From positions 1 through 60,834 of the IMG/VR virus record IMGVR_UViG_3300044972_001994: 60,834 nucleotides of DNA. The stretch is one strand, 5' to 3'. This document shows positions 2,710 through 59,965 of this stretch, one piece after another. The notes beneath the pieces are model-generated. The model saw nothing but the letters and a program-made list of their open reading frames with translations, did not search any database and had not been told where the DNA came from. Numbering within the stretch: position 1 is the stretch's first letter; each line of letters begins with the position of its first letter. The position numbers and the translations under genes were made by a program. This stretch comes from a virus. Its lineage: Duplodnaviria > Caudoviricetes.

Positions 2710-2735
2710 TCTTAAAAATTAGAAATCAACTATAC

Positions 2736-2767
2736 AAAAAACCTCTGAGAAATCAGAGGTTTTTTTT
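2736..2767 (+). terminator. Rho-independent terminator after the capsid gene (possibly bidirectional)
   Basis: AAAAA-ACCTCTGA-GAAA-TCAGAGGT-TTTTTTT: perfect 8-bp stem, GAAA loop, U tract, with an A tract on the 5' side. Confidence 0.93.
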
Positions 2768-2798
2768 GTGTCTTGAAATTAAAAATAAAATCCGGGTG

Positions 2799-2806
2799 GA
2801 TATATA
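2799..2806 (+). promoter_or_regulatory. Putative late promoter GATATATA
   Basis: Recurring motif, here 25 nt before the ATG at 2832 and immediately after a terminator. Analogous to the T4 late TATAAATA box. Confidence 0.65.
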
Positions 2807-2831
2807 GATCATAAATAATTAAATTACAAAG

Positions 2832-14864: not shown

Positions 14865-14875
14865 TATATACAAAA

Positions 14876-15130
14876 ATGAGCGAATCAAGAAGATATAGAA
14901 GAGCAATGGCAAAACAGTTTGGTCTACTTTCCAAAAAAGAAACTTTGGACCAAATGTTAGAAAGGTATAGAAGATCGATCCAAATGGGAGATCAATTTCA
15001 TACCCAACATCTACAAGACTTAAAAAATAAAGAAATTTTACGAGCTGAAGAAAATTCAGACACAGATAAAAAAGACTCTGAAGAATCAACCTCAGAGGAA
15101 AACCCTTACGGATTTTTAGGAAAGAGATAA
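14876..15130 (+). CDS. Small hypothetical protein (basic N-terminus, acidic C-terminus)
   Basis: Tightly packed ORF; AATATATA at 14863-14870 upstream. Confidence 0.6.
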   Translation: MSESRRYRRAMAKQFGLLSKKETLDQMLERYRRSIQMGDQFHTQHLQDLKNKEILRAEENSDTDKKDSEESTSEENPYGFLGKR

Positions 15131-15131
15131 T

Positions 15132-19567: not shown

Positions 19568-21943
19568 ATGGGAATTAAAGCAACAGATAAAAATAGGTCC
19601 TTATTTCTAAAAGGGTTTAATCTTTCTAATTCAGGAGCGAATGAGGATCCAACCTATCTTGGATTTAAGTTTGTATTTGATTTTGGATCTCTTCCGGTAA
19701 ATCTGGAATATGGATGGGCCCCGAGTCCTTTACTAAGAATCCCCAATTATACAAGTGTAAATGGTGCTGCCAATATGCCAAAAAATTTATTTGGTCAACC
19801 TCAGTACCAAAACGTAAATAGCAATGTTACCTATTATTCTGCTTATAATTATTTGCTTGAGAGAGATGGTTCTTATAGAGGATCAAATGGTCTAAAAAGA
19901 GCAAATGCTTTAAAACAATTTCAAATCCTTCTCAATAACATAAATTCAAATGCTCCTTGGTTTTTTCAATCCATAGATGGTCTAGATAAACTTGAACAAA
20001 TTGCTCTTTCCGGATTTCAAGACGAACAGGGTATGGATTCTTTCGATCCTGCAAGAACAAACAGGAAGACACTGAAAATAAATTGTTTAGAATCTTTAAA
20101 TTTAAGAATGACAGCTCTTGCAAATCTATATAATCAAGCAACTTTTGATGCTGATAATATGAGATGGCTTGTTCCTAGAAATTTGAGAAAATTCACAATG
20201 TGGATTTACGTAACGGAGATTAGAAATTTTTTCAAAACGACTAGATTAACTGGAACTTCTGCTGTAATTTCACAATTAGATGATCTTACTTCTTTACTTA
20301 CTAGCGACAGAAACCCAGGAGGAGCTATTTCAAATACCCCAGAAGGAGAAAGACAACCATCTGGCCCAGGTGCACCTGGAAATGCTTTCAATTCATTTGC
20401 TAGAGGAGTTTTATCCCAATCTGGACTAATGAACGAAGTAGATTCTTTTAGAAACCAGCAAGATCAAAGCGGGATAAAACCAGTTTTAATTTATGAGCTA
20501 AGTCAATGTGAATTCGATTTTAGTGAAAGTACCCCATTACAAACTTCTGTAGATGTAGGGATACAACCAAATGCAGCTACCCAATCTTTTAAGATCCACG
20601 TTGGAAAGGTTAGAATGAAAACTCAATTCCCCAACATCAGAACGGATAATAATTATCTTGTACTTGCAGATGGATACGATCAAAATAAAAGCTCGGTTCA
20701 AATTTATTCTGACACTTTAGATTTAGAAACCATCGTTAGCTTAGGAAGGGAGGCACTAACTAACATCACATCTCAAGCTATTAGTGATCTTATAAACGAA
20801 GGAATTAGTCAGCTTGTAAACCCAACTACTTCTGGTATCGATCAAACTTCACTCGGAAATATCTACACTTTTAACCCTTCCCAATTAGCCAGATTGACCA
20901 ATCAAGGTGGCCAATTTGGATTTAACAATGCTCAGAATTTTTTAAATGGGGCAGCAGATACAGGTATAGATAATGTATTTAAAGGAAATCTACCTACACC
21001 TCAATCAATGGGTCTTGGTGGTCCACCGGATAGACTTTACCCAATTATACAAACGGATAAAGACGTTTATTCTGGGGTTCCAGGACCAGATCTAGGTGTT
21101 CCTGGAAGAGTTTATCCTGCACCAGGTGGAGACGTTTATTCTGGGGTTCCGGGACCAGATCTAGGAGTTCCCGACAGAGTTTATCCTGCACCAGGTGGAG
21201 ATGTTTATCCAGACGTTCCTGGTCCAGATCTAGGTGTTCCTGGAAGAGTTTATCCTGCACCAGGTGGAGACGTTTATTCTGGGGTTCCGGGACCAGATCT
21301 AGGAGTTCCCGACAGAGTTTATCCTGCACCAGGTGGGGACGTTTATTCTGGAGTTCCTGGACCAGATCTTGGGGTTCCTGATAGAGTTTATGTTGATCCA
21401 ACAGGAGATGTTTATCCAAATTCTCCGGGCAGGGATCTTGGAGTTCCTGATAGAGTTTATGTTGATCCAGCAGGAGATGTTTATCCAAATTCTCCAGGAA
21501 GAGATCTTGGAGTTCCAGATAGAGTTTATGTTGATCCAGCAGGAGATGTTTATCCTACTGTTCCAGGAGGAGATCTTGGGGTTCCGGATAGAGTTTATAA
21601 AGACCCTTCTGGAAAAGTCTACCCGGATCCAGCAGGAGCTTCAATATTTCCTGGCCAAGATATAGGAAAAGTTTATTCTCCAGGGACTTTAATTTCTTCG
21701 GGATCTGAATTAAGATCTCCTGAAAATACCTTTCCTTCACCTCCTTCTCCAGTTTATGCACCACCGACGTTTAACTATCAGAGAGGGGAGATTGGAAAAA
21801 TTTACCCACCGACATCTGGGGACTTTATTGCAATGGCTCCTATTGATTTAGGAAACACCAAAGGTCCAGATAAATTTAACATAAGTCTTGGAACTTTAAA
21901 TCCACCAGACCAAACTGATTCACCAACTAGTCCAATAATATAA
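19568..21943 (+). CDS. Tail tube-fold-like baseplate protein with a Pro/Gly-rich tandem-repeat C-terminus
   Basis: N-terminal F.F.FDF..WFFQSIDGL..INCLES..YELSQCEF pattern is reminiscent of tube-like proteins; 23-aa repeat at the C-terminus; GATAAATA at 19545-19552. Confidence 0.45.
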   Translation: MGIKATDKNRSLFLKGFNLSNSGANEDPTYLGFKFVFDFGSLPVNLEYGWAPSPLLRIPNYTSVNGAANMPKNLFGQPQYQNVNSNVTYYSAYNYLLERDGSYRGSNGLKRANALKQFQILLNNINSNAPWFFQSIDGLDKLEQIALSGFQDEQGMDSFDPARTNRKTLKINCLESLNLRMTALANLYNQATFDADNMRWLVPRNLRKFTMWIYVTEIRNFFKTTRLTGTSAVISQLDDLTSLLTSDRNPGGAISNTPEGERQPSGPGAPGNAFNSFARGVLSQSGLMNEVDSFRNQQDQSGIKPVLIYELSQCEFDFSESTPLQTSVDVGIQPNAATQSFKIHVGKVRMKTQFPNIRTDNNYLVLADGYDQNKSSVQIYSDTLDLETIVSLGREALTNITSQAISDLINEGISQLVNPTTSGIDQTSLGNIYTFNPSQLARLTNQGGQFGFNNAQNFLNGAADTGIDNVFKGNLPTPQSMGLGGPPDRLYPIIQTDKDVYSGVPGPDLGVPGRVYPAPGGDVYSGVPGPDLGVPDRVYPAPGGDVYPDVPGPDLGVPGRVYPAPGGDVYSGVPGPDLGVPDRVYPAPGGDVYSGVPGPDLGVPDRVYVDPTGDVYPNSPGRDLGVPDRVYVDPAGDVYPNSPGRDLGVPDRVYVDPAGDVYPTVPGGDLGVPDRVYKDPSGKVYPDPAGASIFPGQDIGKVYSPGTLISSGSELRSPENTFPSPPSPVYAPPTFNYQRGEIGKIYPPTSGDFIAMAPIDLGNTKGPDKFNISLGTLNPPDQTDSPTSPII
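21062..21613 (+). repeat. 69-bp coding tandem repeat, 8 copies of DVYxxxPGxDLGVP[DG]RVYxxPxG
   Basis: Unit starts at 21062, 21131, 21200, 21269, 21338, 21407, 21476 and 21545; degenerate copies flank the array. Confidence 0.95.
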
Positions 21944-21944
21944 T

Positions 21945-22778
21945 ATGGCAAATCCTCACGTTCATCTCGGAGAAATAGTAGATATAAATGATCCTCTTAA
22001 ACAAGGGAGGGCTAGGGTCAGAGTGTTCGGTTTTTTTGACGAACTTGAAATTGAAGACATTCCCTGGGCAGAACAGATTTCTGGTCTTTCTTTTTCATCT
22101 TCTTTAGGTAGTGGAAATATTTCAATTCCTAGACTAGGAGCAGTGGTCAATACCCAATTTGATGGAGTTAATTACTATAAAATATTCTATGAATTTGAGA
22201 AAGAAACTGCCCCAGCTCTGCTAGATGAAATATCTAATTCTTATGAGGGAGCTCAATCTCTAATTTATGACACGGATGCTGTTAATTCAAATGGAGATAC
22301 TGGATTGAAATTATTTTTCACCAGGGGAGAAAACGGTAAAGGATTCGTTTCGGATTTTGGTGGTAGCATGCTAAACATCAGAATGGATAGTTCGGTCTAT
22401 CTGAACTCAAATTCTAAAGTACCGGGTGCTAATGTCATTCACATCAAGGATGGAAAGATTAGTTTAGGTTTAGAAAACGAAAGTAAACAACCAGCAGTTT
22501 TAGGGGATCATAACGAAAGTGCTCTAAATTCCTTATTGAGTAGACTTAACGAAGTAATGATTGCTTTGCAGACTTATTCTATTGCTCAAACTGCAGTTAC
22601 CTCTGCAATACCTATATTTTCACCACTTATTCCTGCTTTAACGGTTTTGAATACACAGATAGCAGCAGCTCAAAGCCAACTGACAAGCATTACTGCACCA
22701 ATGATAGAGACAACAAAATCCAAGACCGTTTCCATCGGAGGTGAGGGGGATGGGATTAATCCAATCACAAAACTATAA
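21945..22778 (+). CDS. gp5: Baseplate central spike, gp5/GpV-like OB-fold (no lysozyme domain)
   Basis: GEIVDINDPLKQGRARVRVFG...IPWA...IPRLGAVV OB-fold signature followed by short beta repeats. Confidence 0.85.
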   Translation: MANPHVHLGEIVDINDPLKQGRARVRVFGFFDELEIEDIPWAEQISGLSFSSSLGSGNISIPRLGAVVNTQFDGVNYYKIFYEFEKETAPALLDEISNSYEGAQSLIYDTDAVNSNGDTGLKLFFTRGENGKGFVSDFGGSMLNIRMDSSVYLNSNSKVPGANVIHIKDGKISLGLENESKQPAVLGDHNESALNSLLSRLNEVMIALQTYSIAQTAVTSAIPIFSPLIPALTVLNTQIAAAQSQLTSITAPMIETTKSKTVSIGGEGDGINPITKL

Positions 22779-22784
22779 TAGAAC

Positions 22785-23381
22785 ATGACCAGAGATCAAT
22801 TTATAATTATATACGAAAGATTTGAATCTGAGTATTCAAATGCGTTAAAAAAAGCAGATTTAGAATATCAAGAGGTAATAGCTTCTGTAAATTCATATCA
22901 AAAAATAGTTAATCCTGTAGGTAAAGAAGTCGGGAAAGCAATTTCTCCAGATGTTGAATTCGTTCTAAAAGATAAAATTCTGCCGAACGGGAATACACAA
23001 AAATCAGAAATATATTTCTTTAAAGAAGATCCTCTAACTTTAACTATACCAAGTGGAATCGAAGGGTATCCAGATTTTGGACCTTTTGATATTGATCCGG
23101 TGGATCATCCAAGTGATAAAGGATTGTCGTCCGAAAAATTGTCTGTAATTTATGGAAAAATTGTTTCTGGATATACCTCTCCAATTCTATTTAAGTATTT
23201 AGAAGTGAATTTTCTTCTCGATGAAGTAAGTTTCTTACGTAAGGAAATAGTAACTCTGCAAACGGAAGTAAAGGATCTGAGGAGAGATGTCAGATTATTG
23301 CAAATTCAGTTGGGTATTTTGACAGGAGGGGCAACAACACTACCAGATATAATAAAATATCTAAAAGATAAATTAATCTAA
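22785..23381 (+). CDS. Hypothetical protein with C-terminal coiled coil
   Basis: Heptad run EVSFLRKEIVTLQTEVKDLRRDVRLLQIQL. Confidence 0.6.
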   Translation: MTRDQFIIIYERFESEYSNALKKADLEYQEVIASVNSYQKIVNPVGKEVGKAISPDVEFVLKDKILPNGNTQKSEIYFFKEDPLTLTIPSGIEGYPDFGPFDIDPVDHPSDKGLSSEKLSVIYGKIVSGYTSPILFKYLEVNFLLDEVSFLRKEIVTLQTEVKDLRRDVRLLQIQLGILTGGATTLPDIIKYLKDKLI

Positions 23382-23401
23382 TTTAATTAGAATTTTACGA
23401 A

Positions 23402-23409
23402 GATATATA
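23402..23409 (+). promoter_or_regulatory. Putative late promoter GATATATA upstream of bS1
   Basis: Recurring motif 30 nt before the ATG at 23440. Confidence 0.65.
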
Positions 23410-23439
23410 CATTCAATCACCCTTTAAACAATAAAAATA

Positions 23440-24606
23440 ATGCAAGTAATTTCTCTATTAGAAAAAGAAACAGAAACATTTAACTGGGATCTACCCAGCG
23501 GATTCATCGTAAATAAAAAAATCCAAACCCCAAGCTACATCAAAATTTATTCCCACGAAAAATATGCTGCAGAATTATATGCTTCATATAGAGGAATCAA
23601 TCCCGGAAATCTAGAATCAGGAAAGGATTTAGAAGAAGGAAAAGTATACACGTGCAGAATTACTAGCACAGATAAAGATAGTGGATTTGCCCACACCGAC
23701 TCAGGTCAAACAATCTATTTAGACCTAAAGAAAGAAAGAAAAGATGCTCAGAAATTAGGAATACAAGGTCTTGATTTTACGATAGGAACATCCATTAAAA
23801 CTTTAATTAAGGAAATAGACGGATCTTATTATGGATCAATTGTTGATTGTTATGTACAAAATTTAAAAGATGAATTCTTCGATCAAATTAAATCTGCTTC
23901 TACAGCTTATCCAGCAAAAGTTGAAGCAATTAATAAAGGAGGATATTTAGTTGACATTTCGGGTGTTAAGTGTTTCCTTCCTGGATCACTTGCAGCAGCA
24001 AATAAAATTACAGATTTTGAATCTCTAGTAGGTAAAACAATCTATGTAATGATAGACGGTTATGTTGCACCAAAAGATATTTTCGTAGTTTCTTACAAGA
24101 AATATCTAAGCAAAATCATAGGTCAAAAAATTCAAGAATTAGATTTAACTAAGAAGTACCAAGGTACTGTTACCGGATCTTCTTCATTTGGCTTGTTTGT
24201 TGAATGGGAAGAGTTTTACACTGGTCTAATTCATAAAACGGAATTTCCAAATCAAACCGTTCAAGGATTCAATCCTGGAGACGAAATTGAATTCTATGTA
24301 AGAGAAGTTAAAGAAGACAATAAACTAACTCTTAGCTTTGAAGCACCTGTAGAAAAAATTGTTAAGCTTTATGAAATTAAAGAGGCTGTTGAAAAAGGAA
24401 CAATTTCAGAAATGGCGGCAATTGTTAAATACAGAAGAAAAAATGGTTGCTTAGTTGAATTACCAGAATCCGGTTTGATGGCTATGATACCACAAGAAAG
24501 AATAGACTCAGATGCTGATATCAGACCTGGAGACAGAGTTGGTATTTTAGTATATGAGATTGACCCAGTAATGGGTAAAATATTTGCAGACATCGTAAAT
24601 GGCTAA
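23440..24606 (+). CDS. rpsA: Ribosomal protein bS1 homolog (four S1 domains)
   Basis: KGGYLVDISGVKCFLPGS..D...VGKT..VVS (bS1 D2), YQGTVTG..FGLFVE..GLIHKTE (D3), GCLVEL..PGDRV..YEID (D4). N-terminal FNWD as recalled for Bacteroidota bS1. Confidence 0.85.
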   Translation: MQVISLLEKETETFNWDLPSGFIVNKKIQTPSYIKIYSHEKYAAELYASYRGINPGNLESGKDLEEGKVYTCRITSTDKDSGFAHTDSGQTIYLDLKKERKDAQKLGIQGLDFTIGTSIKTLIKEIDGSYYGSIVDCYVQNLKDEFFDQIKSASTAYPAKVEAINKGGYLVDISGVKCFLPGSLAAANKITDFESLVGKTIYVMIDGYVAPKDIFVVSYKKYLSKIIGQKIQELDLTKKYQGTVTGSSSFGLFVEWEEFYTGLIHKTEFPNQTVQGFNPGDEIEFYVREVKEDNKLTLSFEAPVEKIVKLYEIKEAVEKGTISEMAAIVKYRRKNGCLVELPESGLMAMIPQERIDSDADIRPGDRVGILVYEIDPVMGKIFADIVNG

Positions 24607-26017
24607 TTTCCAAAATCACTTTGATAGACTACAAGCTCTAAATGCTTCCATAATTGGATTTGAATTCGAATTCTTTTCCAATATGGTTAGAGGAAGAATT
24701 GTGGAATCCCTATCTAAGTTATTAGGAAAAAAAGTAATACTTTCGTCTAGATACCACTCAAAAATTCCAGTTACCCAATCCGTTTTTAAACTTGAGCCTG
24801 ATTATTCAGGGGGGAGTAAAATGAACGAGCTTATCACTGGTCCACTTCCATATGCCGAAGCAATTCCGGTTCTCATCAAAGTTCTTAAATGGATAGATGA
24901 AAACGGGTGGACAAATGATAAATGTGCTTTTCAGTTTAATATCAGTTTTGATAAAATGAGAAAAGATGTAGGAATGAGAATGGAAAATCTTGACAGACTT
25001 CAATTCATTTTAGGAATTGACGAGGGAATGATCTATTCTAAGTTTGGAAATAGAATGAATAACGTTTATGCAAAGTCAATCAAGAAGATAGTTCCTAGAA
25101 ATAGATTCTCTTCTATTGACGATCTAACAACAATTGATCCTAAGTTATTCAAACTTCCGGACGACAAATATTACGGAGCTAATTTTACAAAATTAAAAGA
25201 CGGCTATATCGAAATCAGATATTTAGGAGGTAGAGATTATCAAAAGAAAATATCTGAAATTAGAGAAATTCTTGACTATGTCATAATTCATCTTTATAAT
25301 ATTCTCAGCGGAAGATCTACATATTCACAGAAAGATCTTGATACGTTAAAGAAAATGATGAAAGAATACTCAAAGGTAGTAAAAAGTTTTTCGGATCCTA
25401 GAGCTTTCTTCATGAATTATCCAGATTTCCACTTGTTGGTGGATCTAAAAGGATTTGAAGAGAACATCAAGACTTATTTCCCTATGATCAGAGACAAAGT
25501 TTTTGATCTTATCGTAGAAGGGGGAGTTCGTCACGGGTTCTTTAATTATGATACTTCAACAGGAAGATTTCAGTTAAAAGATGCAAGATGCAGGGATGCT
25601 TCTTATATTACAGATTTTGACCTTCTTAATTGTGACATCAAAGGATCTAGAGTTATCAATTGCAATCTTTATTCTTGTAAAGTTAAAAATTGCCAAGTAG
25701 AAGATTCTCAATTACTAACAGGAAATACAATCGAAAATAGCAAAGTTAAAAACACATCTGCTGAATATTCTAATAGTTTAGAAGAGTGTTATATAGACTG
25801 CGCAGGAAAATCCATAGACTGTAATATAAAAGGTGGAGTAATTAGAAAGGCAGATCTTGGAAGAAATGCAAAAGTTTCTAAAGAAACTGAAGAGGTGAAA
25901 GATTTTGATGACGTTAGAAAAGCTAGATTCGTTTCCGATTCTAGATTAAAGGACTCAAATACTCTTTATAAACCTCAATCTTTCAAAGATCAAAACTGGA
26001 AGTATAAAAAACTATAA
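24599..26017 (+). CDS. Putative amidoligase (COOH-NH2 ligase, Amidoligase_2-like) with a Cys-rich beta-helix C-terminus
   Basis: IGFEFEF, EPDYS, NELITGP, NDKCAFQFNISF, KYYGANF and YIEIRY motifs; C-terminal NCDI/NCNL/SCKV/NCQV 5-residue periodicity. Confidence 0.7.
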   Translation: MANFQNHFDRLQALNASIIGFEFEFFSNMVRGRIVESLSKLLGKKVILSSRYHSKIPVTQSVFKLEPDYSGGSKMNELITGPLPYAEAIPVLIKVLKWIDENGWTNDKCAFQFNISFDKMRKDVGMRMENLDRLQFILGIDEGMIYSKFGNRMNNVYAKSIKKIVPRNRFSSIDDLTTIDPKLFKLPDDKYYGANFTKLKDGYIEIRYLGGRDYQKKISEIREILDYVIIHLYNILSGRSTYSQKDLDTLKKMMKEYSKVVKSFSDPRAFFMNYPDFHLLVDLKGFEENIKTYFPMIRDKVFDLIVEGGVRHGFFNYDTSTGRFQLKDARCRDASYITDFDLLNCDIKGSRVINCNLYSCKVKNCQVEDSQLLTGNTIENSKVKNTSAEYSNSLEECYIDCAGKSIDCNIKGGVIRKADLGRNAKVSKETEEVKDFDDVRKARFVSDSRLKDSNTLYKPQSFKDQNWKYKKL

Positions 26018-26022
26018 CTAAA

Positions 26023-26796
26023 ATGACTGAAGCAGAATTAATACAAGACATTAAAGACGATCTTTCCGCATCTTGTTCCCTTCCATACAATTTAAACGAT
26101 CAAGAAATAATTAGAATTATCAATAGAGCGAAAGCTTGGATGTATGATAACTATCAATATGCGGTAGAGCAAAGATTCTTTGTTCTAGGTTCTACTCTTT
26201 TTTCTACACAAGAATTTCTAAAGACGAGACAAATTCAACTTCCGGATAAGATTGTAACAGTTTTCGATGTCAGGGAAGCAAATAATCCTGGTGTTTCTGG
26301 AAACCCCGACAGAGACTTTGGGAGTTCAAAACTTCTTGGTTCTGAACTTCTTCTATCTCCTTTTATGGGAGACAACTTGGTTTATAGAACAGTAATGTAT
26401 TCTTATTTCGATTTAGCTAAAGCTTATTTATTAGAAACTTTTGCATTCAGATGGAACAAGAACACTAAGAAACTTACGATACTAGGAAGAAATCCTGCAG
26501 GATCACCTAACAACGTGGGAACTGGGCCGAACAACTATGTTAAGTCCGTGGCAGTTAGCTGCTTTGTTGCAATTGAAGATCATGAGTTATTTGACGATGA
26601 ACTTTTCTCCAGATACTGCAGAGCAAAAGCAAAGCAAAGTTTAGCAAGAGTTATTGGTGCTTTCAATTATAATCTTCCAGGTGGAGTTCAAGTTAACTTT
26701 TCAGAGATAAAAGCAATGGGAGATGCAGAGATGCAGGAGGTAATGGAAATGATAAATGGTGAGAATACTCCTTCATATTTCCTTCAGTGGAATTAA
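26023..26796 (+). CDS. gp13: Neck/head-completion protein, gp13-like
   Basis: IINRA...WN..TKKLTI...AKAKQ...NLPGGVQVN signature of gp13-family adaptors. Confidence 0.75.
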   Translation: MTEAELIQDIKDDLSASCSLPYNLNDQEIIRIINRAKAWMYDNYQYAVEQRFFVLGSTLFSTQEFLKTRQIQLPDKIVTVFDVREANNPGVSGNPDRDFGSSKLLGSELLLSPFMGDNLVYRTVMYSYFDLAKAYLLETFAFRWNKNTKKLTILGRNPAGSPNNVGTGPNNYVKSVAVSCFVAIEDHELFDDELFSRYCRAKAKQSLARVIGAFNYNLPGGVQVNFSEIKAMGDAEMQEVMEMINGENTPSYFLQWN

Positions 26797-26935
26797 TTTT
26801 TTTATTTAGGAAACCTTTTTGCTAGAAACCATCTAAAAGAATTACTTATATTCCCAGGGGAAGAATCTAATATACAGGGTTCCCTAACCCCAATCTTAAC
26901 TAAAATTCATTAGTTTACCCCAGTTTCTAAACGTA

Positions 26936-26943
26936 GATATATA
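26936..26943 (+). promoter_or_regulatory. Putative late promoter GATATATA
   Basis: 20 nt before the gp25-like ATG. Confidence 0.65.
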
Positions 26944-26963
26944 ATGGGAAATAAAAAATCCCA

Positions 26964-27335
26964 ATGATAGAGATTTACAATAGAGATCCAGGAGACTTCG
27001 GATATAAAGAAGGAATACTTGAAACTACAGATCCCATCGAGATCTGCATAGGTCAATTGAAGATGCTTCTTTTAACCAACAAAGGAGAAGTTTTAGGTGA
27101 CCCTGAATTTGGAATTAGCTTAGATGAATTAGTTTTTAATTTGGAGCTTTCCGAAACTTCTATCAAAAAAGAAATAGATTTTCAAATCAACACTTATTGC
27201 ACTTTGTTCTATGAACTTGGTGGATACTTTGATTTGAAATTTTATCAGGGAACTATGAGGGATATAGCCACAATAGATTTTTATATTTCCTCTCAATCAA
27301 CAAAGAGTCCAATCATAACATTACAGGTAACATAA
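26964..27335 (+). CDS. gp25: Baseplate wedge/sheath initiator, gp25-like
   Basis: LLLTNKGEVLGDPEFG..L..LVF GPW/gp25 motif; 123 aa; directly before the gp6-like gene. Confidence 0.85.
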   Translation: MIEIYNRDPGDFGYKEGILETTDPIEICIGQLKMLLLTNKGEVLGDPEFGISLDELVFNLELSETSIKKEIDFQINTYCTLFYELGGYFDLKFYQGTMRDIATIDFYISSQSTKSPIITLQVT

Positions 27336-27344
27336 TTAACATAG

Positions 27345-29072
27345 ATGAATAATATTTTTCAGAAAAATAATATTTTAATTAGAGGTCTTTTAAACACGAC
27401 CTATAATTTCTTGCAGCAAACTTTCAATCAAACAAGAAATGTCTTTACGACTGCTTCTGCTTGGGGACAAATATTATTTGTTCTTGAAAACCTATCCCAG
27501 CTAATTCTTTACTTCATCGAAGATTCGATTACAGAATTAAATATCTATGAAGCTACTAGAGACTACTCGGTTAGAAGTTTGGCTAGAATAGCAGGATATG
27601 ATCCTGCAAGAGCCATGGGAGCCCAAGGTGAAATTGAAGTCTCCTGGAACACTAAAGCAACTACCACTGGAGGCGGAGCAGTTTTACTACAGGAAAATAC
27701 CAGAATCCAATGTGATCAAAATGGACTCGTTTATACTATTATTCTAAATGGACCTAGAGTAAAGATTCCTTTAACCAGAGGAAATTCTTTTAGGTTTAAA
27801 ATTGTGCAAGGAACTTTTAATGAGACTATATTTACTGGAAACGGGGCTGCACTCCAAAGTTTTAACATCCCAATCAAAGGAGGATCTCTTGTTGATCAAT
27901 TTTATATCAACACTACAGTCAACGATAACAAATGGAAAAAATATGATTCTCTCTATGATATTCCTCTTCAGGGAGAAGGGTATTTAGTAAAGACCGGAAT
28001 TAGCGAGGGAATAGACATTTATTTTGGAAATTCTAATTTTGGAAAAGTTCCACCAAGAGGATCTTTGATTAAAGTTCAATATTTACAAACTCTAGGATTT
28101 GCTGGAAATCTTAGATCTACCTCTACCAGTAAAATTACTTACAGATTTTTAGATACAGGTACTGATTTATTTGGGGCAGAAGTAAATCTTAATGACTACC
28201 TTCAAATTGTCAATACGGTAGATCCTTCTTTTGGAGCTAATGAAGAACCAATTTCTATTACAAGACTTGCAGCTCCGAAGACAAGCAGAGCTTTTGTTTT
28301 TGCTAATGCTGGAAACTATGAAATTTACTTACAGAGATTTAATATATTTTCTCAGATACAAGCATTTTCTACCTTTGATGATGAATACTTAGATGACGAT
28401 AATGTTGTTTACTTGTATTTAATTCCTGATATAACGATAGGTTTATCTTCTAATGAGGACTATTTTAGTATTCCTCTTTCAAGTTTTCTTTTGACGAATG
28501 CACAAAAATTGGCAATTTTAAATCTTATTGAAGATTCAGGGTCTATGATAGCAACTACTGTTGTTAAAATAATAGAGCCTACTATTCAAAGGTTTGTAGG
28601 AAACGCAGTTCTAACTGTTTTCGAGGGATATGATCCTGAGATTATTAAAGATAAGATTCAAGCTTCTATTTCTTCTTACATGATAAATCTAAAGAGAAGA
28701 GATAAAATTCCAAAGTCTGATATGATTGCTCTTATAGAATCTATTCCTGGGGTTGACTCGGTTAGCTTCTATTTTGTAGGACAAGCCAATGAAGCTTACC
28801 ATGCAACTGTAGATTTCCTCCCTAACGTTAGCACAAGTCAGCTTACAACTAATATAGGATTTGATCAATTCGGAGACATTATTATTGGGAGGGGAGAACT
28901 AGTAGTTTTGAGAGGGGGATGGAACGATAGAAATGGGATGTACTATGAACTTGGGGTAGTACCAGGTAAACCTTCTGCTTTGAATATTTCAATTAGTGGA
29001 TTTGTCCCTGTTAATTATCTTTCTGAACTTAATGCTGAAACTAAAGCACAATTAATAGCTGCAAATAGATAA
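27345..29072 (+). CDS. gp6: Baseplate wedge protein gp6/baseplate J-like
   Basis: ATRDYSVRSLARIAGY, IYFGN..FGKVP, V.YL.T.G..GN, GANEE, IESIPGVDSV. Confidence 0.85.
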   Translation: MNNIFQKNNILIRGLLNTTYNFLQQTFNQTRNVFTTASAWGQILFVLENLSQLILYFIEDSITELNIYEATRDYSVRSLARIAGYDPARAMGAQGEIEVSWNTKATTTGGGAVLLQENTRIQCDQNGLVYTIILNGPRVKIPLTRGNSFRFKIVQGTFNETIFTGNGAALQSFNIPIKGGSLVDQFYINTTVNDNKWKKYDSLYDIPLQGEGYLVKTGISEGIDIYFGNSNFGKVPPRGSLIKVQYLQTLGFAGNLRSTSTSKITYRFLDTGTDLFGAEVNLNDYLQIVNTVDPSFGANEEPISITRLAAPKTSRAFVFANAGNYEIYLQRFNIFSQIQAFSTFDDEYLDDDNVVYLYLIPDITIGLSSNEDYFSIPLSSFLLTNAQKLAILNLIEDSGSMIATTVVKIIEPTIQRFVGNAVLTVFEGYDPEIIKDKIQASISSYMINLKRRDKIPKSDMIALIESIPGVDSVSFYFVGQANEAYHATVDFLPNVSTSQLTTNIGFDQFGDIIIGRGELVVLRGGWNDRNGMYYELGVVPGKPSALNISISGFVPVNYLSELNAETKAQLIAANR

Positions 29073-33905: not shown

Positions 33906-35618
33906 ATGGCAGACATTTTACAAATATACCAATATCAGACAGTAAATTTTACTGACACTAGTACAGGAGCTCTTCCTTTGACAAGACTTTGGAGTTTTCC
34001 TGGAGGGACCCCTATAACTACTCCAAATCCTTTAACCTCTAGTCCAACAAATATAAAGTATCTAGTTCCTGGAACATATAGTGTTACCTTGACGGAAACT
34101 GACAACTTCGGAACAACTAAATCCTTAACTGAGGTTAATATCATTCAGGTTTCTCCTTCAAGTTTAACTGCTGGAATTTCTGGCCCTTCCCCTGCGTCGG
34201 TTAAGATGGACGAGGGATATCAATTAGACGATGCAAGTACAGGAACCCCCTTTGCACCAACCTCTTGGGCTTGGACTCTTCCTTATGGAAGATCTGCAAC
34301 CACACAAAATGTTGGGGTTACCGGATATGGGGATTGGAACACCTTAACTGGAACTTATTCTGGAGCACCAGGTTCTACATATACGGGAAATATTTCTTTG
34401 ACCTCTTCTGCTAACATTTCAGGAACTACTCTTAACAGTACTTCTTCCACTACAGTTGATGTTTCTAAGCTAGGACCTCTAGAAAATTTATATTTAAATG
34501 CAACAGGATCTAATCCTAGTCAATACGTGACGGGACTTTCCGGAGGACTTGTGGTTTTTCCCGGAAATATTCCTGCAATAGGATCGGATTTTGGATATCC
34601 TGCAAATACTAATCTTGTTATTAAATTAGATTATAGACTTAGAGGATTTGGTAATAATTCAAATCTTTATTTTCATTCGACCAACGAGATCGGAAATGTT
34701 ACTATGCTTACTGGTTTATGGTCACCAAATTATAATGATATTATAAATGGATTTTTAATAATACAGGCTCCTATCTACAGCCAATTTTCGGCAGTTCCTG
34801 TTGATTCTGCTATTAGCTTAGGTAATTATATTGTATCGGGTCAAAGTCCAGATATTTTTCTAATTGACGAAAGTGGTCTTCTTTCAAATCTCTATAACAA
34901 TTACAATTACAATCCTGACCTTCTTAGCTATCTAATAGTAAATCCTTACAAGATAATTTTTAGTGGAAATATTCAGTATATTAATCAGAGTGGAGCTCCT
35001 GGAACCCCTATGACATTTGTAGACACAGGGGGAGGAAGTAATTCTAATCCTGTTGTGTATTCCCCTCAAGCTTTGATATCTAAGGGTCTACCTCCTCTTC
35101 CTACTCCTGTTTATACCGTTACCATTTCAGTCACATTTAATAATTTACCGCAAACCCCAATAGTTGTTAATTTTAATGGACCAACCGGGAATGATCTGGT
35201 AACTGGTGAATACTATGTCGCTCAAGATAATAGTAATGGACAGGGATTTGTCAGCATCCTAAATAGCGCTATAAACTTATCCGGTATTCCCTTTGGAGGA
35301 TTATCTTCTTTAGAATTTAAGGCTAATCCTATATTTTCAATTCTTAACGGAACTGGATATGATTCTGCTGGATTCAATGGGGTTTCTCTTGAAATAAAAA
35401 CCCCTGCAATCTCTTTGGTTACTATAACTGATAATTCTGCGACTTTGAGCACTCCCCTAGTAACGGTAGCTCCTTTTATGGGAAATTATTTTAATACACA
35501 AGGATCAACCGAGACCTGCACCGGAATGTTCTCTGTAGGACCTTCCGGGAACCCGGGGAACTTTCCTAACAATGCTCCCTATTATAATGATCTAATTTTT
35601 GGAGGATCAATCTATTAA
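33906..35618 (+). CDS. PKD-domain virion/fibre protein
   Basis: VNFTDTSTG..WSFPGGTP..Y..PGTYSVTLT PKD signature and a second PKD-like unit (DASTG..SWAWTLP). Confidence 0.7.
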   Translation: MADILQIYQYQTVNFTDTSTGALPLTRLWSFPGGTPITTPNPLTSSPTNIKYLVPGTYSVTLTETDNFGTTKSLTEVNIIQVSPSSLTAGISGPSPASVKMDEGYQLDDASTGTPFAPTSWAWTLPYGRSATTQNVGVTGYGDWNTLTGTYSGAPGSTYTGNISLTSSANISGTTLNSTSSTTVDVSKLGPLENLYLNATGSNPSQYVTGLSGGLVVFPGNIPAIGSDFGYPANTNLVIKLDYRLRGFGNNSNLYFHSTNEIGNVTMLTGLWSPNYNDIINGFLIIQAPIYSQFSAVPVDSAISLGNYIVSGQSPDIFLIDESGLLSNLYNNYNYNPDLLSYLIVNPYKIIFSGNIQYINQSGAPGTPMTFVDTGGGSNSNPVVYSPQALISKGLPPLPTPVYTVTISVTFNNLPQTPIVVNFNGPTGNDLVTGEYYVAQDNSNGQGFVSILNSAINLSGIPFGGLSSLEFKANPIFSILNGTGYDSAGFNGVSLEIKTPAISLVTITDNSATLSTPLVTVAPFMGNYFNTQGSTETCTGMFSVGPSGNPGNFPNNAPYYNDLIFGGSIY

Positions 35619-39244: not shown

Positions 39245-39927
39245 GATTCGTATTCTCTGTAGATATCGAGAATTTTAGGAACGATAGGATTTCTATGGTT
39301 CTTTAGAAGAGTAATTACTTTAACCCCCTCAACTCTAGCTTCTAGAATTTTGAAGAAGTCTATTCCTGAGTCTTTCTTAGATCTTAAATCTATCTGAGAA
39401 GTGTCCCCGCAGAATACCATTCTGGAATTTGTACCAAGTCTTCCTACTATCATTTCAGTTTGCTTTCCGTTAACGTTTTGACATTCGTCCACGATAACCA
39501 TAGCATCTACGAAAGTTCTACCCCTAACGAATGTAAAAGGCAGAATTTCTATAGTCTGACTTTCTATCATTTTGTCGATAGTTTCCTTGTTGTATAGCAT
39601 GTAAAGGTTTGCGTAAATAGGAGCTAACCAAGGGTCCATCTTTGCTTTAATATCCCCAGGAAGAAATCCCATTGGATCTGCTGCATCAACTACTGGTCTG
39701 GTGATGATAATCTTTTCGATTTCTCGATTAAAGAATAGATCTAGAGCTATTTGACAAGCTAATAGAGTTTTTCCCGATCCTGCCTGTCCCTTTACTAAGG
39801 TAACTACATTTTTTAGGATTTCTGATTTTGCTGCTTTTTGTTCTTCGTTTAGAGCGAGTGCAAATTTGATTTCACCTTTAGGTTTTCTCTTTACAGCGTT
39901 TTTGTTGGCGGTTTGTTTTTGATCCAT
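39241..39927 (-). CDS. phoH: PhoH-family ATPase
   Basis: GQAGSGKT, ITRP, GFLPGD, RGRTF, DECQN, RLG and GDTSQIDL motifs plus the terminal HR motif. Confidence 0.95.
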   Translation of the reverse strand: MDQKQTANKNAVKRKPKGEIKFALALNEEQKAAKSEILKNVVTLVKGQAGSGKTLLACQIALDLFFNREIEKIIITRPVVDAADPMGFLPGDIKAKMDPWLAPIYANLYMLYNKETIDKMIESQTIEILPFTFVRGRTFVDAMVIVDECQNVNGKQTEMIVGRLGTNSRMVFCGDTSQIDLRSKKDSGIDFFKILEARVEGVKVITLLKNHRNPIVPKILDIYREYES

Positions 39928-55967: not shown

Positions 55968-55991
55968 AAGAATATTTTAAGAATTTTAAGG

Positions 55992-55999: not shown

Positions 56000-56014
56000 G
56001 AGTCAGATAAATAT

Positions 56015-59950: not shown

Positions 59951-59965
59951 TTTTTATCAAGATTA

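What the first reader, a model, noticed from the sequence alone, without database searches (positions are those of the whole stretch)
23402..26017. Late-promoter cassette coupling a phage ribosomal protein bS1 to an amidoligase inside the baseplate/neck genes
Seen: a four-S1-domain bS1 homolog has its own GATATATA motif. It overlaps by 8 nt a COOH-NH2-ligase-like gene, which runs straight into the gp13-like neck gene. Established: bS1 loads A/U-rich, SD-less mRNAs; S1 homologs are reported in some huge phages; COOH-NH2 ligases (glutamine synthetase/GCS/PafA superfamily) join carboxylates to amines, sometimes tagging proteins. Inference: this may be a late translation-takeover module in which phage bS1 replaces the host protein to favour structural mRNAs and the ligase modifies a ribosomal or virion target. 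The pairing is not one I recognise as characterised.
Basis: partly seen in the sequence, partly recalled or inferred. Interest (0 to 1): 0.8.

Follow-up and report, generated by a model that had tools for sequence, protein, structure and literature searches.

The report
Megaphage late operon: S1 protein plus amidoligase
A giant bacteriophage carries, inside its tail and neck genes, a shortened copy of ribosomal protein S1 joined by overlapping reading frames to an uncharacterised ligase-like protein; phage S1 genes were already known, but this ligase family and the pairing were not described.

Summary
A 388-aa protein with four S1 domains (23440-24606) overlaps by 8 nt a 472-aa Amidoligase_2-like protein with a pentapeptide-repeat beta-helix (24599-26017). 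The head-tail adaptor gene starts 5 nt later. GATATATA lies 30 nt before the S1 start. All 7 copies in the window are on the + strand and intergenic. The motif stands before S1 in 19 of 19 relatives examined.

In a complete 373-kb relative the motif precedes head, tail and lysis genes but no replication gene, and a T4 gp55-like late sigma factor is encoded. "Late promoter" is therefore a supported inference; timing was not measured.

S1 is collinear with bS1 domains 1-4. A complex model docks its N-terminal part on Flavobacterium uS2 (ipSAE 0.72, best control 0.00; a like complex is solved).

S1 then ligase then adaptor is kept in 46 of 48 related IMG/VR contigs; the other 2 are cut at the contig end. 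In four distinct more distant huge-phage genomes the two genes are unlinked. Lak phages have S1 only, and five cultured relatives have neither.

The ligase belongs to a large unnamed viral family. The window's clade keeps the putative catalytic residues except one His, replaced by Gln; about a third of the family has lost several. Its substrate is unknown.

Phage S1 is already published. The ligase fusion and the coupling are a new variant.

The parts
23402..23409 (+). GATATATA promoter-like motif, 30 nt upstream of the S1 start
   Evidence: All 7 window copies are on the + strand and intergenic. The motif is conserved upstream of S1 in 19 of 19 relatives. In the complete relative G002, 60 of 75 copies are intergenic and 53 have a co-oriented gene start within 120 nt.
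23440..24606 (+). Gene for a 388-aa four-domain bS1-like protein
   Evidence: Pfam S1 at E 5.2e-17. The best NCBIfam and PDB sequence hits are all 30S protein S1. Foldseek top hit is E. coli bS1, 9gut_B, E 1.6e-22.
23503..23628 (+). N-terminal segment (residues 22-63) predicted to contact uS2
   Evidence: Interface residues 22 and 33-63 in the complex model. F14, W16, N25, Y37 and Y42 are invariant in 18 of 18 relatives. No PDB chain matches residues 1-75 by sequence.
23632..23838 (+). S1 domain 1 (residues 65-133)
   Evidence: AF2 model. Residues 75-76, 83-93 and 128-129 lie in the predicted uS2 interface.
23905..24093 (+). S1 domain 2 (residues 156-218), with a KGG...FLPGSL signature like bS1 domain 2
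   Evidence: The profile alignment to E. coli bS1 residues 60-259 is collinear. GG at 167-168 and PGSLAAAN at 181-188 are invariant, except K166 and L180.
24154..24336 (+). S1 domain 3 (residues 239-299), the canonical S1 RNA-binding domain
   Evidence: Best Pfam S1 stretch, 239-299. Found independently as 24154-24336.
24412..24600 (+). S1 domain 4 (residues 325-387)
   Evidence: AF2 model. Weak Pfam OB_cyt-4 match at 325-385.
24599..24606 (+). 8-nt overlap ATGGCTAA of the S1 stop with the ligase start (translational coupling)
   Evidence: From the ORF coordinates, the overlap is 8 or 11 nt in 19 of 19 relatives.
24599..26017 (+). Gene for a 472-aa Amidoligase_2-like / pentapeptide-repeat fusion protein
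   Evidence: The family has 1012 representatives at E <= 0.001.
24599..25498 (+). N-terminal glutamine-synthetase-like (Amidoligase_2) region, residues 1-300
   Evidence: PF12224 on residues 19-115. 30 of 100 diverse family members hit PF12224, best E 7.1e-14. VIA-align to human glutamine synthetase 2ojw_A: Z 6.9, rmsd 4.5, 168 residues aligned. GFEFEF at residues 20-25 is invariant.
25526..25894 (+). C-terminal pentapeptide-repeat beta-helix, residues about 310-432
   Evidence: pLDDT 82-97 and regular short strands in the AF2 model. Pentapeptide repeat proteins are the best Foldseek rows, E 2e-3. 31 of 100 family members hit Pentapeptide_4, best E 1.2e-6.
26023..26796 (+). Head-tail adaptor (neck) gene, third gene of the unit
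   Evidence: phrog_211 at E 5.8e-11. It follows the ligase gene in every related locus that has downstream DNA.
26936..26943 (+). Next GATATATA copy, before the gp25-like baseplate gene; it marks the end of the S1-ligase-adaptor unit
   Evidence: No convincing terminator and no sigma-70 enrichment between the two motifs.

Best explanation
The locus is a three-gene unit (S1, ligase, head-tail adaptor) driven by a phage-specific promoter of the GATATATA class. It sits in a roughly 370-435 kb megaphage lineage related to the Lak, LR756500 and Tenacibaculum PTm1 phages, whose mRNAs lack Shine-Dalgarno sequences.

Shown:
- the gene anatomy;
- the conserved motif;
- the conserved 8 or 11 nt frame overlap;
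- the four S1 domains, collinear with bS1;
- Amidoligase_2 plus pentapeptide-repeat ancestry of the second protein;
- clade-wide synteny.

Inferred:
1. The motif is a late promoter read with a gp55-like sigma factor.
2. The S1 protein is a shortened bS1 surrogate. It docks on uS2 of the host 30S subunit through its N-terminal segment and domain 1, and uses domains 3-4 to hold A/U-rich, SD-less leaders. This adds to or displaces host bS1 when virion proteins are made in bulk.
3. The second protein is an ATP-dependent carboxylate-amine ligase, and its beta-helix serves as a docking or oligomerisation module. It is made in fixed ratio with S1 because of the frame overlap. Its substrate is unknown.
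4. Its link with S1 is a lineage-specific operon arrangement rather than an obligate two-part system.
For: Anatomy.

S1 identity:
- All top NCBIfam, PDB sequence and Foldseek hits are bS1.
- The clade profile aligns collinearly with E. coli bS1 residues 60-259, i.e. the end of domain 1 through domain 3.
- The model has four OB domains.

uS2 docking:
- Score 0.72, best of 3 controls 0.00.
- That mark was reached by 58 of 80 solved complexes and 2 of 110 mismatched pairs. These counts hold only roughly, because my own alignment was used.
- The runs agree in at least 77% of contacts, and the partner's pLDDT is at least 79.

SD-less context:
- 3 of 39 window genes have an SD-like motif; leaders are A-rich.

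Promoter class:
- Motif placement and conservation.
- In G002 the motif-bearing annotated genes are head closure, head protease, 3 tail fibre and 2 endolysin genes, with no replication gene.
- The 119 motif-less genes scanned include DNA polymerase, primase, ligase, topoisomerase II, thymidylate synthases, UvsX and a gp55-like late sigma factor, phrog_234 at E 1e-15.
- By my rough count the split is 7 versus 2 against 5 versus 18, Fisher p 0.006.

Ligase identity:
- PF12224 hits 15 of 18 clade members and 30 of 100 diverse members, best E 7.1e-14.
- All 30 named ESM Atlas look-alikes are one set. The top three rows carry PF12224 in 37-54% of members, with score 0.92 and 203-205 of 256 shared features.
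- The residues E22, E24, E66, D68, E77, E205 and R207 are kept in 18 of 18 clade members.

Synteny.

Translation-related context in complete relatives:
- 33 tRNA genes in G002.
- A RimK-like ATP-grasp gene in 3 of 3 complete relatives.
Against: - The window protein misses every rpsA equivalog cut-off by far (64.8 bits against 577). It has four domains, not six.
- Its first 75 residues match no solved chain by sequence.
- The uS2 used was a stand-in from Flavobacterium johnsoniae. A bS1-uS2 complex is solved, so the pass may reflect likeness only.
- No time course exists. The only RNA data are four short metatranscriptome contigs, and DNA carry-over is not excluded.
- The window's ligase is 0.2 bits under the Pfam cut-off. 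Its model is poor in residues 129-261. Fold matches to glutamine synthetase-type enzymes are weak.
- Profile comparison with the LUZ24 amidoligases gp16 and gp18 gave nothing significant.
- The clade has Gln where most of the family has His at position 112. Only 65 of 113 diverse members keep the whole acidic/basic set, so catalysis is not universal in the family.
- The two genes are unlinked in LR756501/3, LR756502, LR745206 and LR756504.
- In Lak-A2 the S1 gene lies among tRNA-His guanylyltransferase, DnaB helicase and RNA ligase genes, not virion genes.
Confidence: 0.45

Rival explanations
1. Functional couple. The ligase covalently modifies the phage S1, uS2 or another ribosomal protein, in the way RimK adds glutamates to bS6. 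The modification fixes or tunes the phage S1 on host ribosomes. The frame overlap exists because enzyme and substrate are needed together.
For: - The 8 or 11 nt overlap is kept in 19 of 19 relatives. It also holds in L056, where the ligase is only about 39% identical.
- The putative catalytic set is intact in 18 of 18 clade members.
- The clade also carries a RimK-like gene in 3 of 3 complete genomes, behind the same motif in G002.
- The classical phage amidoligase cluster of LUZ24 likewise sits with a RimK-like gene.
Against: - The two genes are unlinked in four distinct huge-phage genomes that have both. Lak phages have S1 alone.
- The S1 C-terminus is not conserved within the clade, so it is a poor candidate for a tail-modification site.
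- No interaction test was run, because the single complex job went to S1-uS2.
Confidence: 0.15
2. Packaged effectors. S1 and the ligase are made late because they are loaded into the virion and injected with the DNA. They would act at the start of the next infection, following the logic of T4 Alt or the phiKZ virion RNA polymerase (recalled examples).
For: - Both genes lie inside virion modules even where they are not adjacent.
- S1 directly follows the tail-tube homologue in LR756504 and LR756501, and follows giant structural protein homologues in LR745206.
- The ligase lies among tail, baseplate or neck homologues in LR756500, LR745206, LR756502 and LR756504.
- They are co-transcribed with the head-tail adaptor.
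Against: - In Lak-A2 the S1 gene lies among replication and tRNA-processing genes.
- In LR756501 no window homologue was found within 7 kb of the ligase.
- No virion proteome exists for any relative that has these genes. The five cultured relatives lack both.
Confidence: 0.13
3. Non-catalytic accessory virion or assembly protein. The ligase-like protein has been recruited as a scaffold or neck/baseplate accessory. Its adjacency to S1 is incidental.
For: - About a third of 113 diverse family members have lost several putative catalytic residues while keeping the full two-domain length. Other positions (F25, E142, Y208, G210, G211, Y214) stay above 90%.
- Beta-helices are common in tail proteins.
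- The gene consistently sits in structural modules.
Against: - The window's clade keeps 7 of 8 putative catalytic positions in 18 of 18 members.
- Five cultured relatives with homologous capsid genes lack the gene, and Lak lacks it too. It is therefore not a core structural part.
- Alignment of the most distant members may be unreliable.
Confidence: 0.17
4. Off-ribosome S1. The S1 protein acts as a free RNA chaperone, an mRNA stabiliser or a cofactor of a nuclease or polymerase, as host S1 does for T4 RegB or Q-beta replicase. It is not a ribosomal subunit protein.
For: - It misses the rpsA equivalog thresholds and lacks domains 5-6.
- Al-Shayeb et al. note that true rpS1 cannot be told from other S1-domain proteins and allow a role 'on or off the ribosome' (PMC7162821, passage read).
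- Known off-ribosome roles of S1 are listed in PMC13157829 (passages read).
Against: - It is collinear with bS1 including the domain-2 signature, which in bS1 serves ribosome binding rather than RNA binding (the role is recalled; the alignment is).
- The complex model docks the N-terminal part on uS2, with clean controls.
Confidence: 0.1

Closest known systems
Bacterial ribosomal protein bS1 (rpsA)
   Same: - Tandem S1/OB domains.
- Collinear alignment with E. coli bS1 from the end of domain 1 through domain 3, including the KGG...FLPGSL strand of domain 2.
- Best structural match is bS1 on the 30S subunit, 9gut_B, E 1.6e-22.
- Predicted docking on uS2.
   Different: - Four domains instead of six; 388 aa against about 550-590.
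- A 60-residue N-terminal segment with its own conserved F-x-W motif and no detectable sequence match to any solved S1.
- Far below every rpsA equivalog cut-off.
- Encoded in a phage virion-gene operon.
rpS1 genes of huge phages (Al-Shayeb et al. 2020, PMC7162821; passages read)
   Same: - Same kind of gene in the same broad group. The records LR756500-LR756504, LR745206 and the Lak phages all carry homologues at 25-35% identity.
- Same association with genomes that lack Shine-Dalgarno sequences (for this window).
   Different: - The passages I read say nothing about promoter class, about position within virion modules, about a uS2 interface, or about a coupled ligase.
- The supplements of that paper were not available to me and may hold gene-context tables.
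Phage Amidoligase_2 / COOH-NH2 ligase clusters, e.g. Pseudomonas phage LUZ24 gp16 and gp18 with a GlmS-like amidotransferase, a RimK-like protein and gamma-glutamyl cyclotransferase (annotation seen)
   Same: - Same Pfam family by transitivity: 30 of 100 family members hit PF12224, best E 7.1e-14.
- Viral Amidoligase_2 clusters are the nearest ESM Atlas neighbours.
- A RimK-like gene is present in the same genomes.
   Different: - Here the domain is fused to a pentapeptide-repeat beta-helix.
- It stands without an adjacent amidotransferase or cyclotransferase, and lies in a late virion operon instead of the left-arm cluster that in LUZ24 runs on into the primase/helicase and polymerase genes.
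- Direct profile comparison with LUZ24 gp16 and gp18 was not significant.
RimK, the ATP-grasp enzyme that adds glutamates to ribosomal protein bS6
   Same: It is a working analogy for an ATP-dependent amide-bond ligase that modifies a ribosomal protein.
   Different: - A different fold (ATP-grasp against glutamine-synthetase-like).
- No evidence here for any protein substrate.
- The clade has a separate RimK-like gene elsewhere.
T4-type late promoters (TATAAATA, read with gp55 and gp33; recalled)
   Same: - A single A/T-rich octamer about 30 nt before start codons, with no -35 element.
- It stands in front of head, tail and lysis genes.
- A gp55-like late sigma factor is encoded in the complete relative G002 (phrog_234, E 1e-15).
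   Different: - The sequence is GATATATA, not TATAAATA.
- Timing, transcription start and dependence on the sigma factor are untested.
Pentapeptide repeat proteins (Qnr, MfpA, AlbG)
   Same: - Five-residue periodicity.
- A confidently modelled beta-helix.
- Best Foldseek rows: 2o6w at E 2.0e-3 and AlbG 2xt2_B at E 2.4e-3.
- Weak profile hits to designed and natural pentapeptide proteins.
   Different: - Below the Pfam cut-off in the window protein (17.4 bits against 38).
- Only about 120 residues.
- Fused to an enzyme-like domain.
- No link to gyrase or to DNA mimicry is shown.

Membership tests
Ribosomal protein bS1 | Several tandem S1 (OB-fold) domains | tested here: met
   Pfam S1 at E 5.2e-17 with 2 stretches. 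Four OB domains in the AF2 model, mean pLDDT 75.5.
Ribosomal protein bS1 | Domain order collinear with bS1, including the non-canonical ribosome-binding domains 1-2 | tested here: met
   Profile positions 106-296 align with E. coli bS1 residues 60-259 in a single stretch, E 3.3e-17. Foldseek aligns 374 columns to bS1 9gut_B, E 1.6e-22.
Ribosomal protein bS1 | Score above NCBIfam rpsA equivalog cut-offs | tested here: not met
   TIGR00717 gives 64.8 bits against a cut-off of 577. All 12 S1 equivalog models (11 rpsA plus the IspH/S1 fusion) fall far below their cut-offs.
Ribosomal protein bS1 | Six S1 domains, as in Proteobacteria and Bacteroidota (recalled) | tested here: not met
   Four domains in 388 aa. 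Nothing corresponds to domains 5-6.
Ribosomal protein bS1 | Docking on uS2 through the N-terminal segment and domain 1 | tested here: met
   This is a model only. Against Flavobacterium johnsoniae uS2 the ipSAE is 0.72 and the best of 3 controls is 0.00. The mark was reached by 58 of 80 solved complexes and 2 of 110 mismatched pairs (roughly, because my own alignment was used). Contacts agree in at least 77% of cases and partner pLDDT is at least 79. A like complex is solved, so the pass may show likeness only.
Ribosomal protein bS1 | Physical presence in 30S subunits and a role in initiation | not testable with these tools
   Needs biochemistry.
Amidoligase_2 (PF12224), glutamine synthetase-like COOH-NH2 ligases | Pfam score above the gathering cut-off | tested here: inconclusive
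   The window protein scores 21.8 bits against 22. 15 of 18 clade members match at E <= 0.01, best 4e-6. 30 of 100 diverse members match, best 7.1e-14. The family is tied together at E <= 1e-43 for the 150 listed representatives.
Amidoligase_2 (PF12224), glutamine synthetase-like COOH-NH2 ligases | Glutamine-synthetase-type catalytic fold | tested here: inconclusive
   - VIA-align: human glutamine synthetase 2ojw_A, Z 6.9, rmsd 4.5, 168 aligned, model residues 7-241.
- Foldseek: GshF 3ln7_A E 9.3e-3, and glutamine synthetase 8fbp_E E 1.4e-2.
- The model has pLDDT below 50 over most of residues 129-261.
Amidoligase_2 (PF12224), glutamine synthetase-like COOH-NH2 ligases | Metal- and ATP-binding residues: G-x-E-x-E on the first strand, further acidic residues, a His, and E-x-R near the end. 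The mapping onto glutamine synthetase is recalled, not computed. | tested here: inconclusive
   E22, E24, E66, D68, E77, E205 and R207 are invariant in 18 of 18 clade members. Position 112 is Gln in 18 of 18, where 66 of 113 family members have His. The whole set is kept in 65 of 113.
Amidoligase_2 (PF12224), glutamine synthetase-like COOH-NH2 ligases | ATP-dependent ligation of a carboxylate to an amine | not testable with these tools
   Needs an enzyme assay.
Pentapeptide repeat proteins | Right-handed beta-helix built from five-residue repeats | tested here: inconclusive
   - pLDDT is 82-97 across residues 310-430, with regular 3-residue strands.
- Best Foldseek rows are pentapeptide proteins, E 2e-3 to 3e-3.
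- Pfam Pentapeptide_4 scores 17.4 bits against a cut-off of 38 in the window protein. 31 of 100 family members match at E <= 0.01, best 1.2e-6.
- VIA-align ranks left-handed beta-helix proteins as high (Z 9-10), but with rmsd about 11.
T4-type late promoter class | Conserved -10-like octamer before late genes, read with a phage late sigma factor | tested here: inconclusive
   Motif placement and conservation are met. The association with virion and lysis genes, and not with replication genes, is met in G002. A gp55-like sigma factor is present in G002. Timing and transcription start were not measured.

The most novel reading that the evidence does not exclude
S1 and the ligase form one takeover device. 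The ligase, docked through its pentapeptide beta-helix, covalently modifies the phage S1, uS2 or a neighbouring 30S protein. As a result host ribosomes become committed to SD-less phage messages. The two proteins may even be packaged and injected, so that this happens at the very start of infection.
Probability: 0.1. Interest if true: 0.8.

Novelty: new variant of a known kind. Interest (0 to 1): 0.5.

Why it matters
Phage-encoded S1 has been proposed as a way to capture host ribosomes, but it has never been tied to a promoter class, an interface or a partner.

This locus gives a concrete, conserved and testable case in phages of bacteria that initiate translation without Shine-Dalgarno pairing. 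It offers a short S1 with a predicted uS2 interface, made from a late-type promoter in fixed ratio with an enzyme-like protein.

It also brings to light a large viral family that no source names. The family has 1012 representatives at 50% clustering, and it fuses an amidoligase domain to a pentapeptide-repeat helix. It sits in virion modules of the largest known phages, and part of it looks catalytically dead.

If the ligase acts on the translation machinery or on virion proteins, that would be a new kind of phage-directed protein modification. If it does not, the family is still an unexplained and abundant megaphage gene.

Tried and rejected
- PHROGs has no family for either protein.
- Residues 1-75 of S1 searched alone against PDB sequences gave nothing at E <= 10.
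- The ligase profile against PDB sequences gave only weak pentapeptide hits, best E 0.006.
- Profile comparison of the 113-member alignment with LUZ24 gp16 and gp18 gave probabilities of 0.2-0.3%, i.e. no support. LUZ24 gp18 itself only reaches 24 bits on PF12224.
  - I then used three single distant members. They gave one locus (L056) and nothing twice.
- The five cultured relatives chosen by capsid similarity have neither gene: 0 of 5 twice. No virion proteome could therefore be brought in.
- Sigma-70-like promoters and intrinsic terminators in 22700-27400 are at chance level: 18 found against 19.2 expected, and 2 against 2.6.
- RNA evidence:
  - One metatranscriptome run held 13% of the sampled words.
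  - Four short contigs matched without any difference. They lie at 24553-24746, 25582-25744, 25954-26175 and 26431-26637.
  - The rest of 22700-27400 had no cover, which shows nothing.
  - DNA in the library is not excluded, so I do not count this as proof of transcription.
- I considered that the S1 protein could be a structural OB-fold protein. I rejected this because every sequence, profile and fold match is to bS1.
- I considered stop-codon recoding, as in Lak phages. The window reads open under table 11 throughout.
- Iyer et al. 2009 on amidoligases (PMC3268129) is not held. What I say of that paper is recalled.

Full report
**1. What is in the sequence**

- Two + strand ORFs fill the stated span: 23440..24606 (388 aa) and 24599..26017 (472 aa).
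- They share the 8 nt ATGGCTAA, so the ligase start codon lies inside the last S1 codons.
- The next ORF, 26023..26796, begins 5 nt after the ligase stop and matches phrog_211, head-tail adaptor Ad2, at E 5.8e-11.
- Upstream lie a baseplate hub protein (21945..22778; phrog_37871 at E 3.2e-22) and an unconserved 198-aa ORF. Downstream lie gp25-like and gp6-like baseplate wedge genes.
- GATATATA sits at 23402-23409 in the 58-nt gap before the S1 ATG.

**2. Is the motif more than chance?**

- The count is not. Seven copies were found against 4.6 expected, and 18 of 100 shuffles reach 7.
- The placement is. All seven are on the + strand and in intergenic gaps upstream of a + strand ORF, while only 3.6% of the window is intergenic.
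- One-mismatch variants stand in two further gaps, at about 52750 and 55990.
- Upstream of the S1 gene the octamer is kept in 19 of 19 relatives examined, roughly 25-50 nt (by eye) before the ATG, with the flanks diverged.

**3. What genome this is**

- The window is an IMG/VR record that CheckV rates as about 22% complete.
- It is almost wholly a virion module: major head protein, endolysin-like protein, sheath-like and tube proteins, baseplate, and giant fibre-like proteins.
- Its capsid protein is 44% identical to those of LR756500 and the Lak megaphages, and 38% identical to Tenacibaculum phage PTm1. It is 27-31% identical to Tenacibaculum pT24, Flavobacterium MaF61, Sphingomonas PAU and Chryseobacterium MA9V-1.
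- Close relatives include complete genomes with terminal repeats of 373,485, 430,120 and 434,509 bp.
- Only 3 of 39 window genes have an SD-like motif, and leaders are A-rich. This fits hosts that initiate without Shine-Dalgarno pairing. That host inference is mine.

**4. The S1 protein**

- Pfam S1 scores E 5.2e-17.
- The top five NCBIfam hits, and 12 of the 24 in all, are 30S S1 models (one of them the IspH/S1 fusion), all far below their equivalog cut-offs, for example 64.8 against 577 bits.
- Ten of the eleven PDB sequence hits are S1 proteins.
- The clade profile aligns in one stretch, positions 106-296, with E. coli bS1 residues 60-259. This includes the KGG...FLPGSL strand of domain 2.
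- The AlphaFold2 model (mean pLDDT 75.5) has four OB domains and a poorly ordered first 60 residues containing one helix at 43-51.
- Foldseek puts E. coli bS1 on the 30S subunit first: 9gut_B, E 1.6e-22, 374 columns.
- The N-terminal 75 residues match no solved chain by sequence. Even so, F14, W16, N25, Y37 and Y42 are invariant in 18 of 18 relatives.

A complex model of residues 1-225 with Flavobacterium johnsoniae uS2 gave the following:
- Score 0.72, with the best of 3 controls at 0.00.
- That mark was reached by 58 of 80 solved complexes and 2 of 110 mismatched pairs. The counts hold only roughly, because my own alignment was used.
- The runs agree in at least 77% of contacts, and the partner's pLDDT is at least 79.
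- The interface uses S1 residues 22 and 33-63, plus parts of domain 1.
- The uS2 was a stand-in and a bS1-uS2 complex is solved. The pass therefore shows likeness. It does not show binding.

**5. The ligase-like protein**

Family membership:
- The window protein scores 21.8 bits on Amidoligase_2 against a cut-off of 22, over profile positions 5-117 of 245. It also has a weak Pentapeptide_4 match.
- 15 of 18 clade members match PF12224, best E 4e-6.
- Among 100 diverse family members, 30 match PF12224 (best 7.1e-14) and 31 match Pentapeptide_4 (best 1.2e-6).
- The ESM Atlas returned 30 named look-alikes, all of one set. The top three are viral clusters in which 37-54% of members carry PF12224, with score 0.92 and 203-205 of 256 shared features. 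By the tool's own figures, scores of 0.9 or more arise by chance 4 to 10 times in 100.

Structure:
- The AlphaFold2 model is mediocre: mean pLDDT 64.1 and pTM 0.47.
- It is good for residues 20-100 and 310-430 and poor for 129-261.
- Foldseek gives pentapeptide repeat proteins first, at E 2e-3. Further down it gives GshF (3ln7_A, E 9.3e-3) and glutamine synthetase (8fbp_E, E 1.4e-2).
- VIA-align gives beta-helix proteins for residues 300-440. For residues 7-241 it gives human glutamine synthetase 2ojw_A at Z 6.9, rmsd 4.5, 168 aligned. That Z is within the range the tool calls common.
- Direct profile comparison with the LUZ24 amidoligases was not significant.

Size and naming of the family:
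- 1012 representatives at E <= 0.001, and 210 at E <= 1e-30.
- Nearly all are 420-490 aa and match over their full length.
- Every source name seen is 'hypothetical protein'.

Putative catalytic residues (my mapping onto glutamine synthetase is recalled, not computed):
- In the window's clade E22, E24, E66, D68, E77, E205 and R207 are invariant. Position 112 is Gln in 18 of 18.
- In 113 diverse members position 112 is His in 66.
- 65 of the 113 keep the whole acidic/basic set, and roughly a third have lost several of these residues.
- Meanwhile F25, E142, Y208, G210, G211 and Y214 stay above 90%.

**6. Synteny**

- A scan of IMG/VR with the ligase gave 47 loci at 56-85% identity.
- 45 of them have the S1 gene directly upstream. 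In the other 2 the contig ends there.
- A scan with S1 added one further contig that carries the pair, so 46 of 48 distinct contigs have it. Several contigs are near-duplicates, so these are not 46 independent events.
- The adaptor, gp25-like and gp6-like genes follow in every locus with downstream DNA.
- From the ORF coordinates, the overlap is 8 or 11 nt in 19 of 19 relatives.
- A more distant relative, L056 (ligase about 39% identical), keeps S1, ligase, adaptor, gp25 and gp6 in the same order.
- In LR756500 the order is kept, but two opposite-strand 127-aa ORFs separate S1 from the ligase, and two small ORFs separate the ligase from the adaptor.
- In four of these five distant genomes (counting LR756500) the ligase still lies among homologues of window tail, baseplate or neck genes. 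In LR756501 no window homologue was found within 7 kb.
- S1 follows the tail-tube homologue in LR756504 and LR756501, and giant structural protein homologues in LR745206.
- In Lak-A2 the S1 gene lies next to tRNA-His guanylyltransferase, DnaB-like helicase and RNA ligase genes. Lak genomes have no ligase homologue: 0 of 2, with 3 of 3 positive controls.
- Five cultured relatives of 168-235 kb have neither gene.

**7. Promoter class**

I used the complete relative G002.
- GATATATA occurs 75 times. 60 copies are intergenic under a crude gene call with 87% coding, and 53 have a co-oriented gene start within 120 nt.
- Of the 53 downstream genes, PHROGs names these:
  - head closure, head maturation protease, three tail-fibre proteins and two endolysins;
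  - an NTP pyrophosphohydrolase, a nuclease and three homing or HNH endonucleases;
  - a RimK-like protein.
  - None is a replication gene.
- I also scanned 119 genes that have an upstream gap of at least 40 nt but no motif. They include:
  - DNA polymerase, primase, DNA ligase, a 3'-5' exonuclease and two topoisomerase II subunits;
  - two thymidylate synthases, dCMP deaminase, thymidylate kinase and UvsX;
  - a sigma-70-type factor, and a T4 gp55-like late sigma factor (phrog_234, E 1e-15);
  - only five virion or lysis genes.
- By my rough sorting the split is 7 versus 2 against 5 versus 18, Fisher p 0.006.
- Between the motif at 23402 and the next one at 26936 there is no convincing terminator.
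- Four metatranscriptome contigs without any difference span the S1/ligase junction and the ligase/adaptor junction, but DNA carry-over is not excluded.
- 'Late promoter' is thus a reasonable inference and not a measurement.

**8. How it most likely works**

- I take the S1 protein to be a shortened bS1 surrogate that docks on uS2 and holds A/U-rich leaders. It would be produced together with virion proteins.
- I take the second protein to be an ATP-dependent amide-bond ligase with a beta-helical docking module and an unknown substrate. The frame overlap would make it in fixed ratio with S1.
- The unlinked arrangement in deeper relatives, and S1 without the ligase in Lak, argue that the pairing is a lineage-specific operon arrangement. 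I give this combined reading 0.45.
- The rivals are:
  - a true enzyme-substrate couple, 0.15;
  - packaged and injected effectors, 0.13;
  - a non-catalytic virion accessory protein, 0.17;
  - an off-ribosome S1, 0.10.
- The clade has a wider translation-related gene set: 33 tRNA genes in G002, tRNA nucleotidyltransferase and tRNA amidotransferase, and a RimK-like ATP-grasp gene in 3 of 3 complete genomes.

**9. What is in print**

- Al-Shayeb et al. 2020 (PMC7162821, passages read) report S1 among huge-phage ribosomal proteins. They note up to six S1 domains, a correlation with missing Shine-Dalgarno sequences, and the difficulty of confirming true rpS1.
- A 2026 paper on cyanophage PhiMa05 (PMC13157829, passages read) reports a phage bS1 and reviews S1 roles.
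- The jumbo-phage overview PMC7824862 (passages read) mentions amidoligases only in its reference list.
- A search for 'amidoligase' with 'pentapeptide repeat' found 2 papers, of which 1 was listed, on an unrelated subject (listing only).
- Searches for 'S1 homologue' with phage and ribosome, and for 'phage-encoded', 'ribosomal protein S1' and 'jumbo', showed no paper on a phage S1 coupled to a ligase.
- The library lacks most subscription journals.

**10. Verdict**

The ligase's role and any functional link to S1 remain open.
- The S1 half is a new member of a published kind.
- The Amidoligase_2/pentapeptide fusion family and its frame-overlapped coupling to S1 in a virion operon are, as far as my searches reach, undescribed.
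- Overall this is a new variant of a known kind, of moderate interest.

Noticed in passing
G002:C1:154306-155766 (L074:14306-15763); also G001:C1 about 396690 and G003:C1 about 388532: The complete relatives carry a 486-aa RimK-like ATP-grasp protein. It matches PF08443 at E 3.6e-35 and phrog_2599 'ribosomal protein S6 glutaminyl transferase'. In G002 it stands behind a GATATATA copy, and it is present in 3 of 3 complete genomes. This is a second candidate modifier of the translation machinery in the clade.
   Followed up: partly
L068:14388-14744 (G002 34388-34744) and L082:11097-11990: The complete relative G002 encodes a T4 gp55-like late sigma factor (phrog_234, E 1e-15) and a separate sigma-70-type factor (phrog_351, E 1.7e-43). 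They are candidates for reading the GATATATA class and another promoter class.
   Followed up: no
window 19568-21943: The 791-aa protein upstream of the hub carries about ten tandem proline- and glycine-rich repeats of the type GDVYSGVPGPDLGVPDRVYPAP, with locally raised GC of 0.40. Homologues are present in most related loci.
   Followed up: no
window 39241-39927 (- strand): A PhoH-like gene (phrog_170, E 1.5e-62) lies on the opposite strand in the middle of the + strand virion module. G002 has the same arrangement.
   Followed up: no
window 22785-23381: The 198-aa ORF between the hub gene and the S1 promoter has no homologue in any of the 49 related loci by tblastn. In those loci about 2 kb of other sequence lies between the hub homologue and S1, so this is a variable spot just upstream of the conserved promoter.
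   Followed up: partly
window 2710-2831: After the major head protein gene there is a clear hairpin followed by a T run (CCTCTGAGAAATCAGAGGTTTTTTTT), and then a GATATATA copy at 2799. It looks like a terminator-promoter pair.
   Followed up: no
window 14865-15131, 55968-56267, 59951-60249: Three 'intergenic' gaps of 267-300 nt look like coding sequence for short proteins under 90 aa that my ORF cut-off left out. The third follows the GATATATA copy at 59966.
   Followed up: no
L082-L083 (G002 about 303.5-335 kb): G002 has 33 tRNA genes, 32 of them clustered in about 16 kb, covering all 20 amino acids. tRNA nucleotidyltransferase and tRNA amidotransferase genes lie elsewhere in the genome.
   Followed up: no
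L051:5916-6698 (LR756500): Two tandem 127-aa ORFs on the opposite strand are inserted between S1 and the ligase in LR756500. A homing endonuclease gene follows the adaptor. The operon is evidently open to insertions in that lineage.
   Followed up: partly
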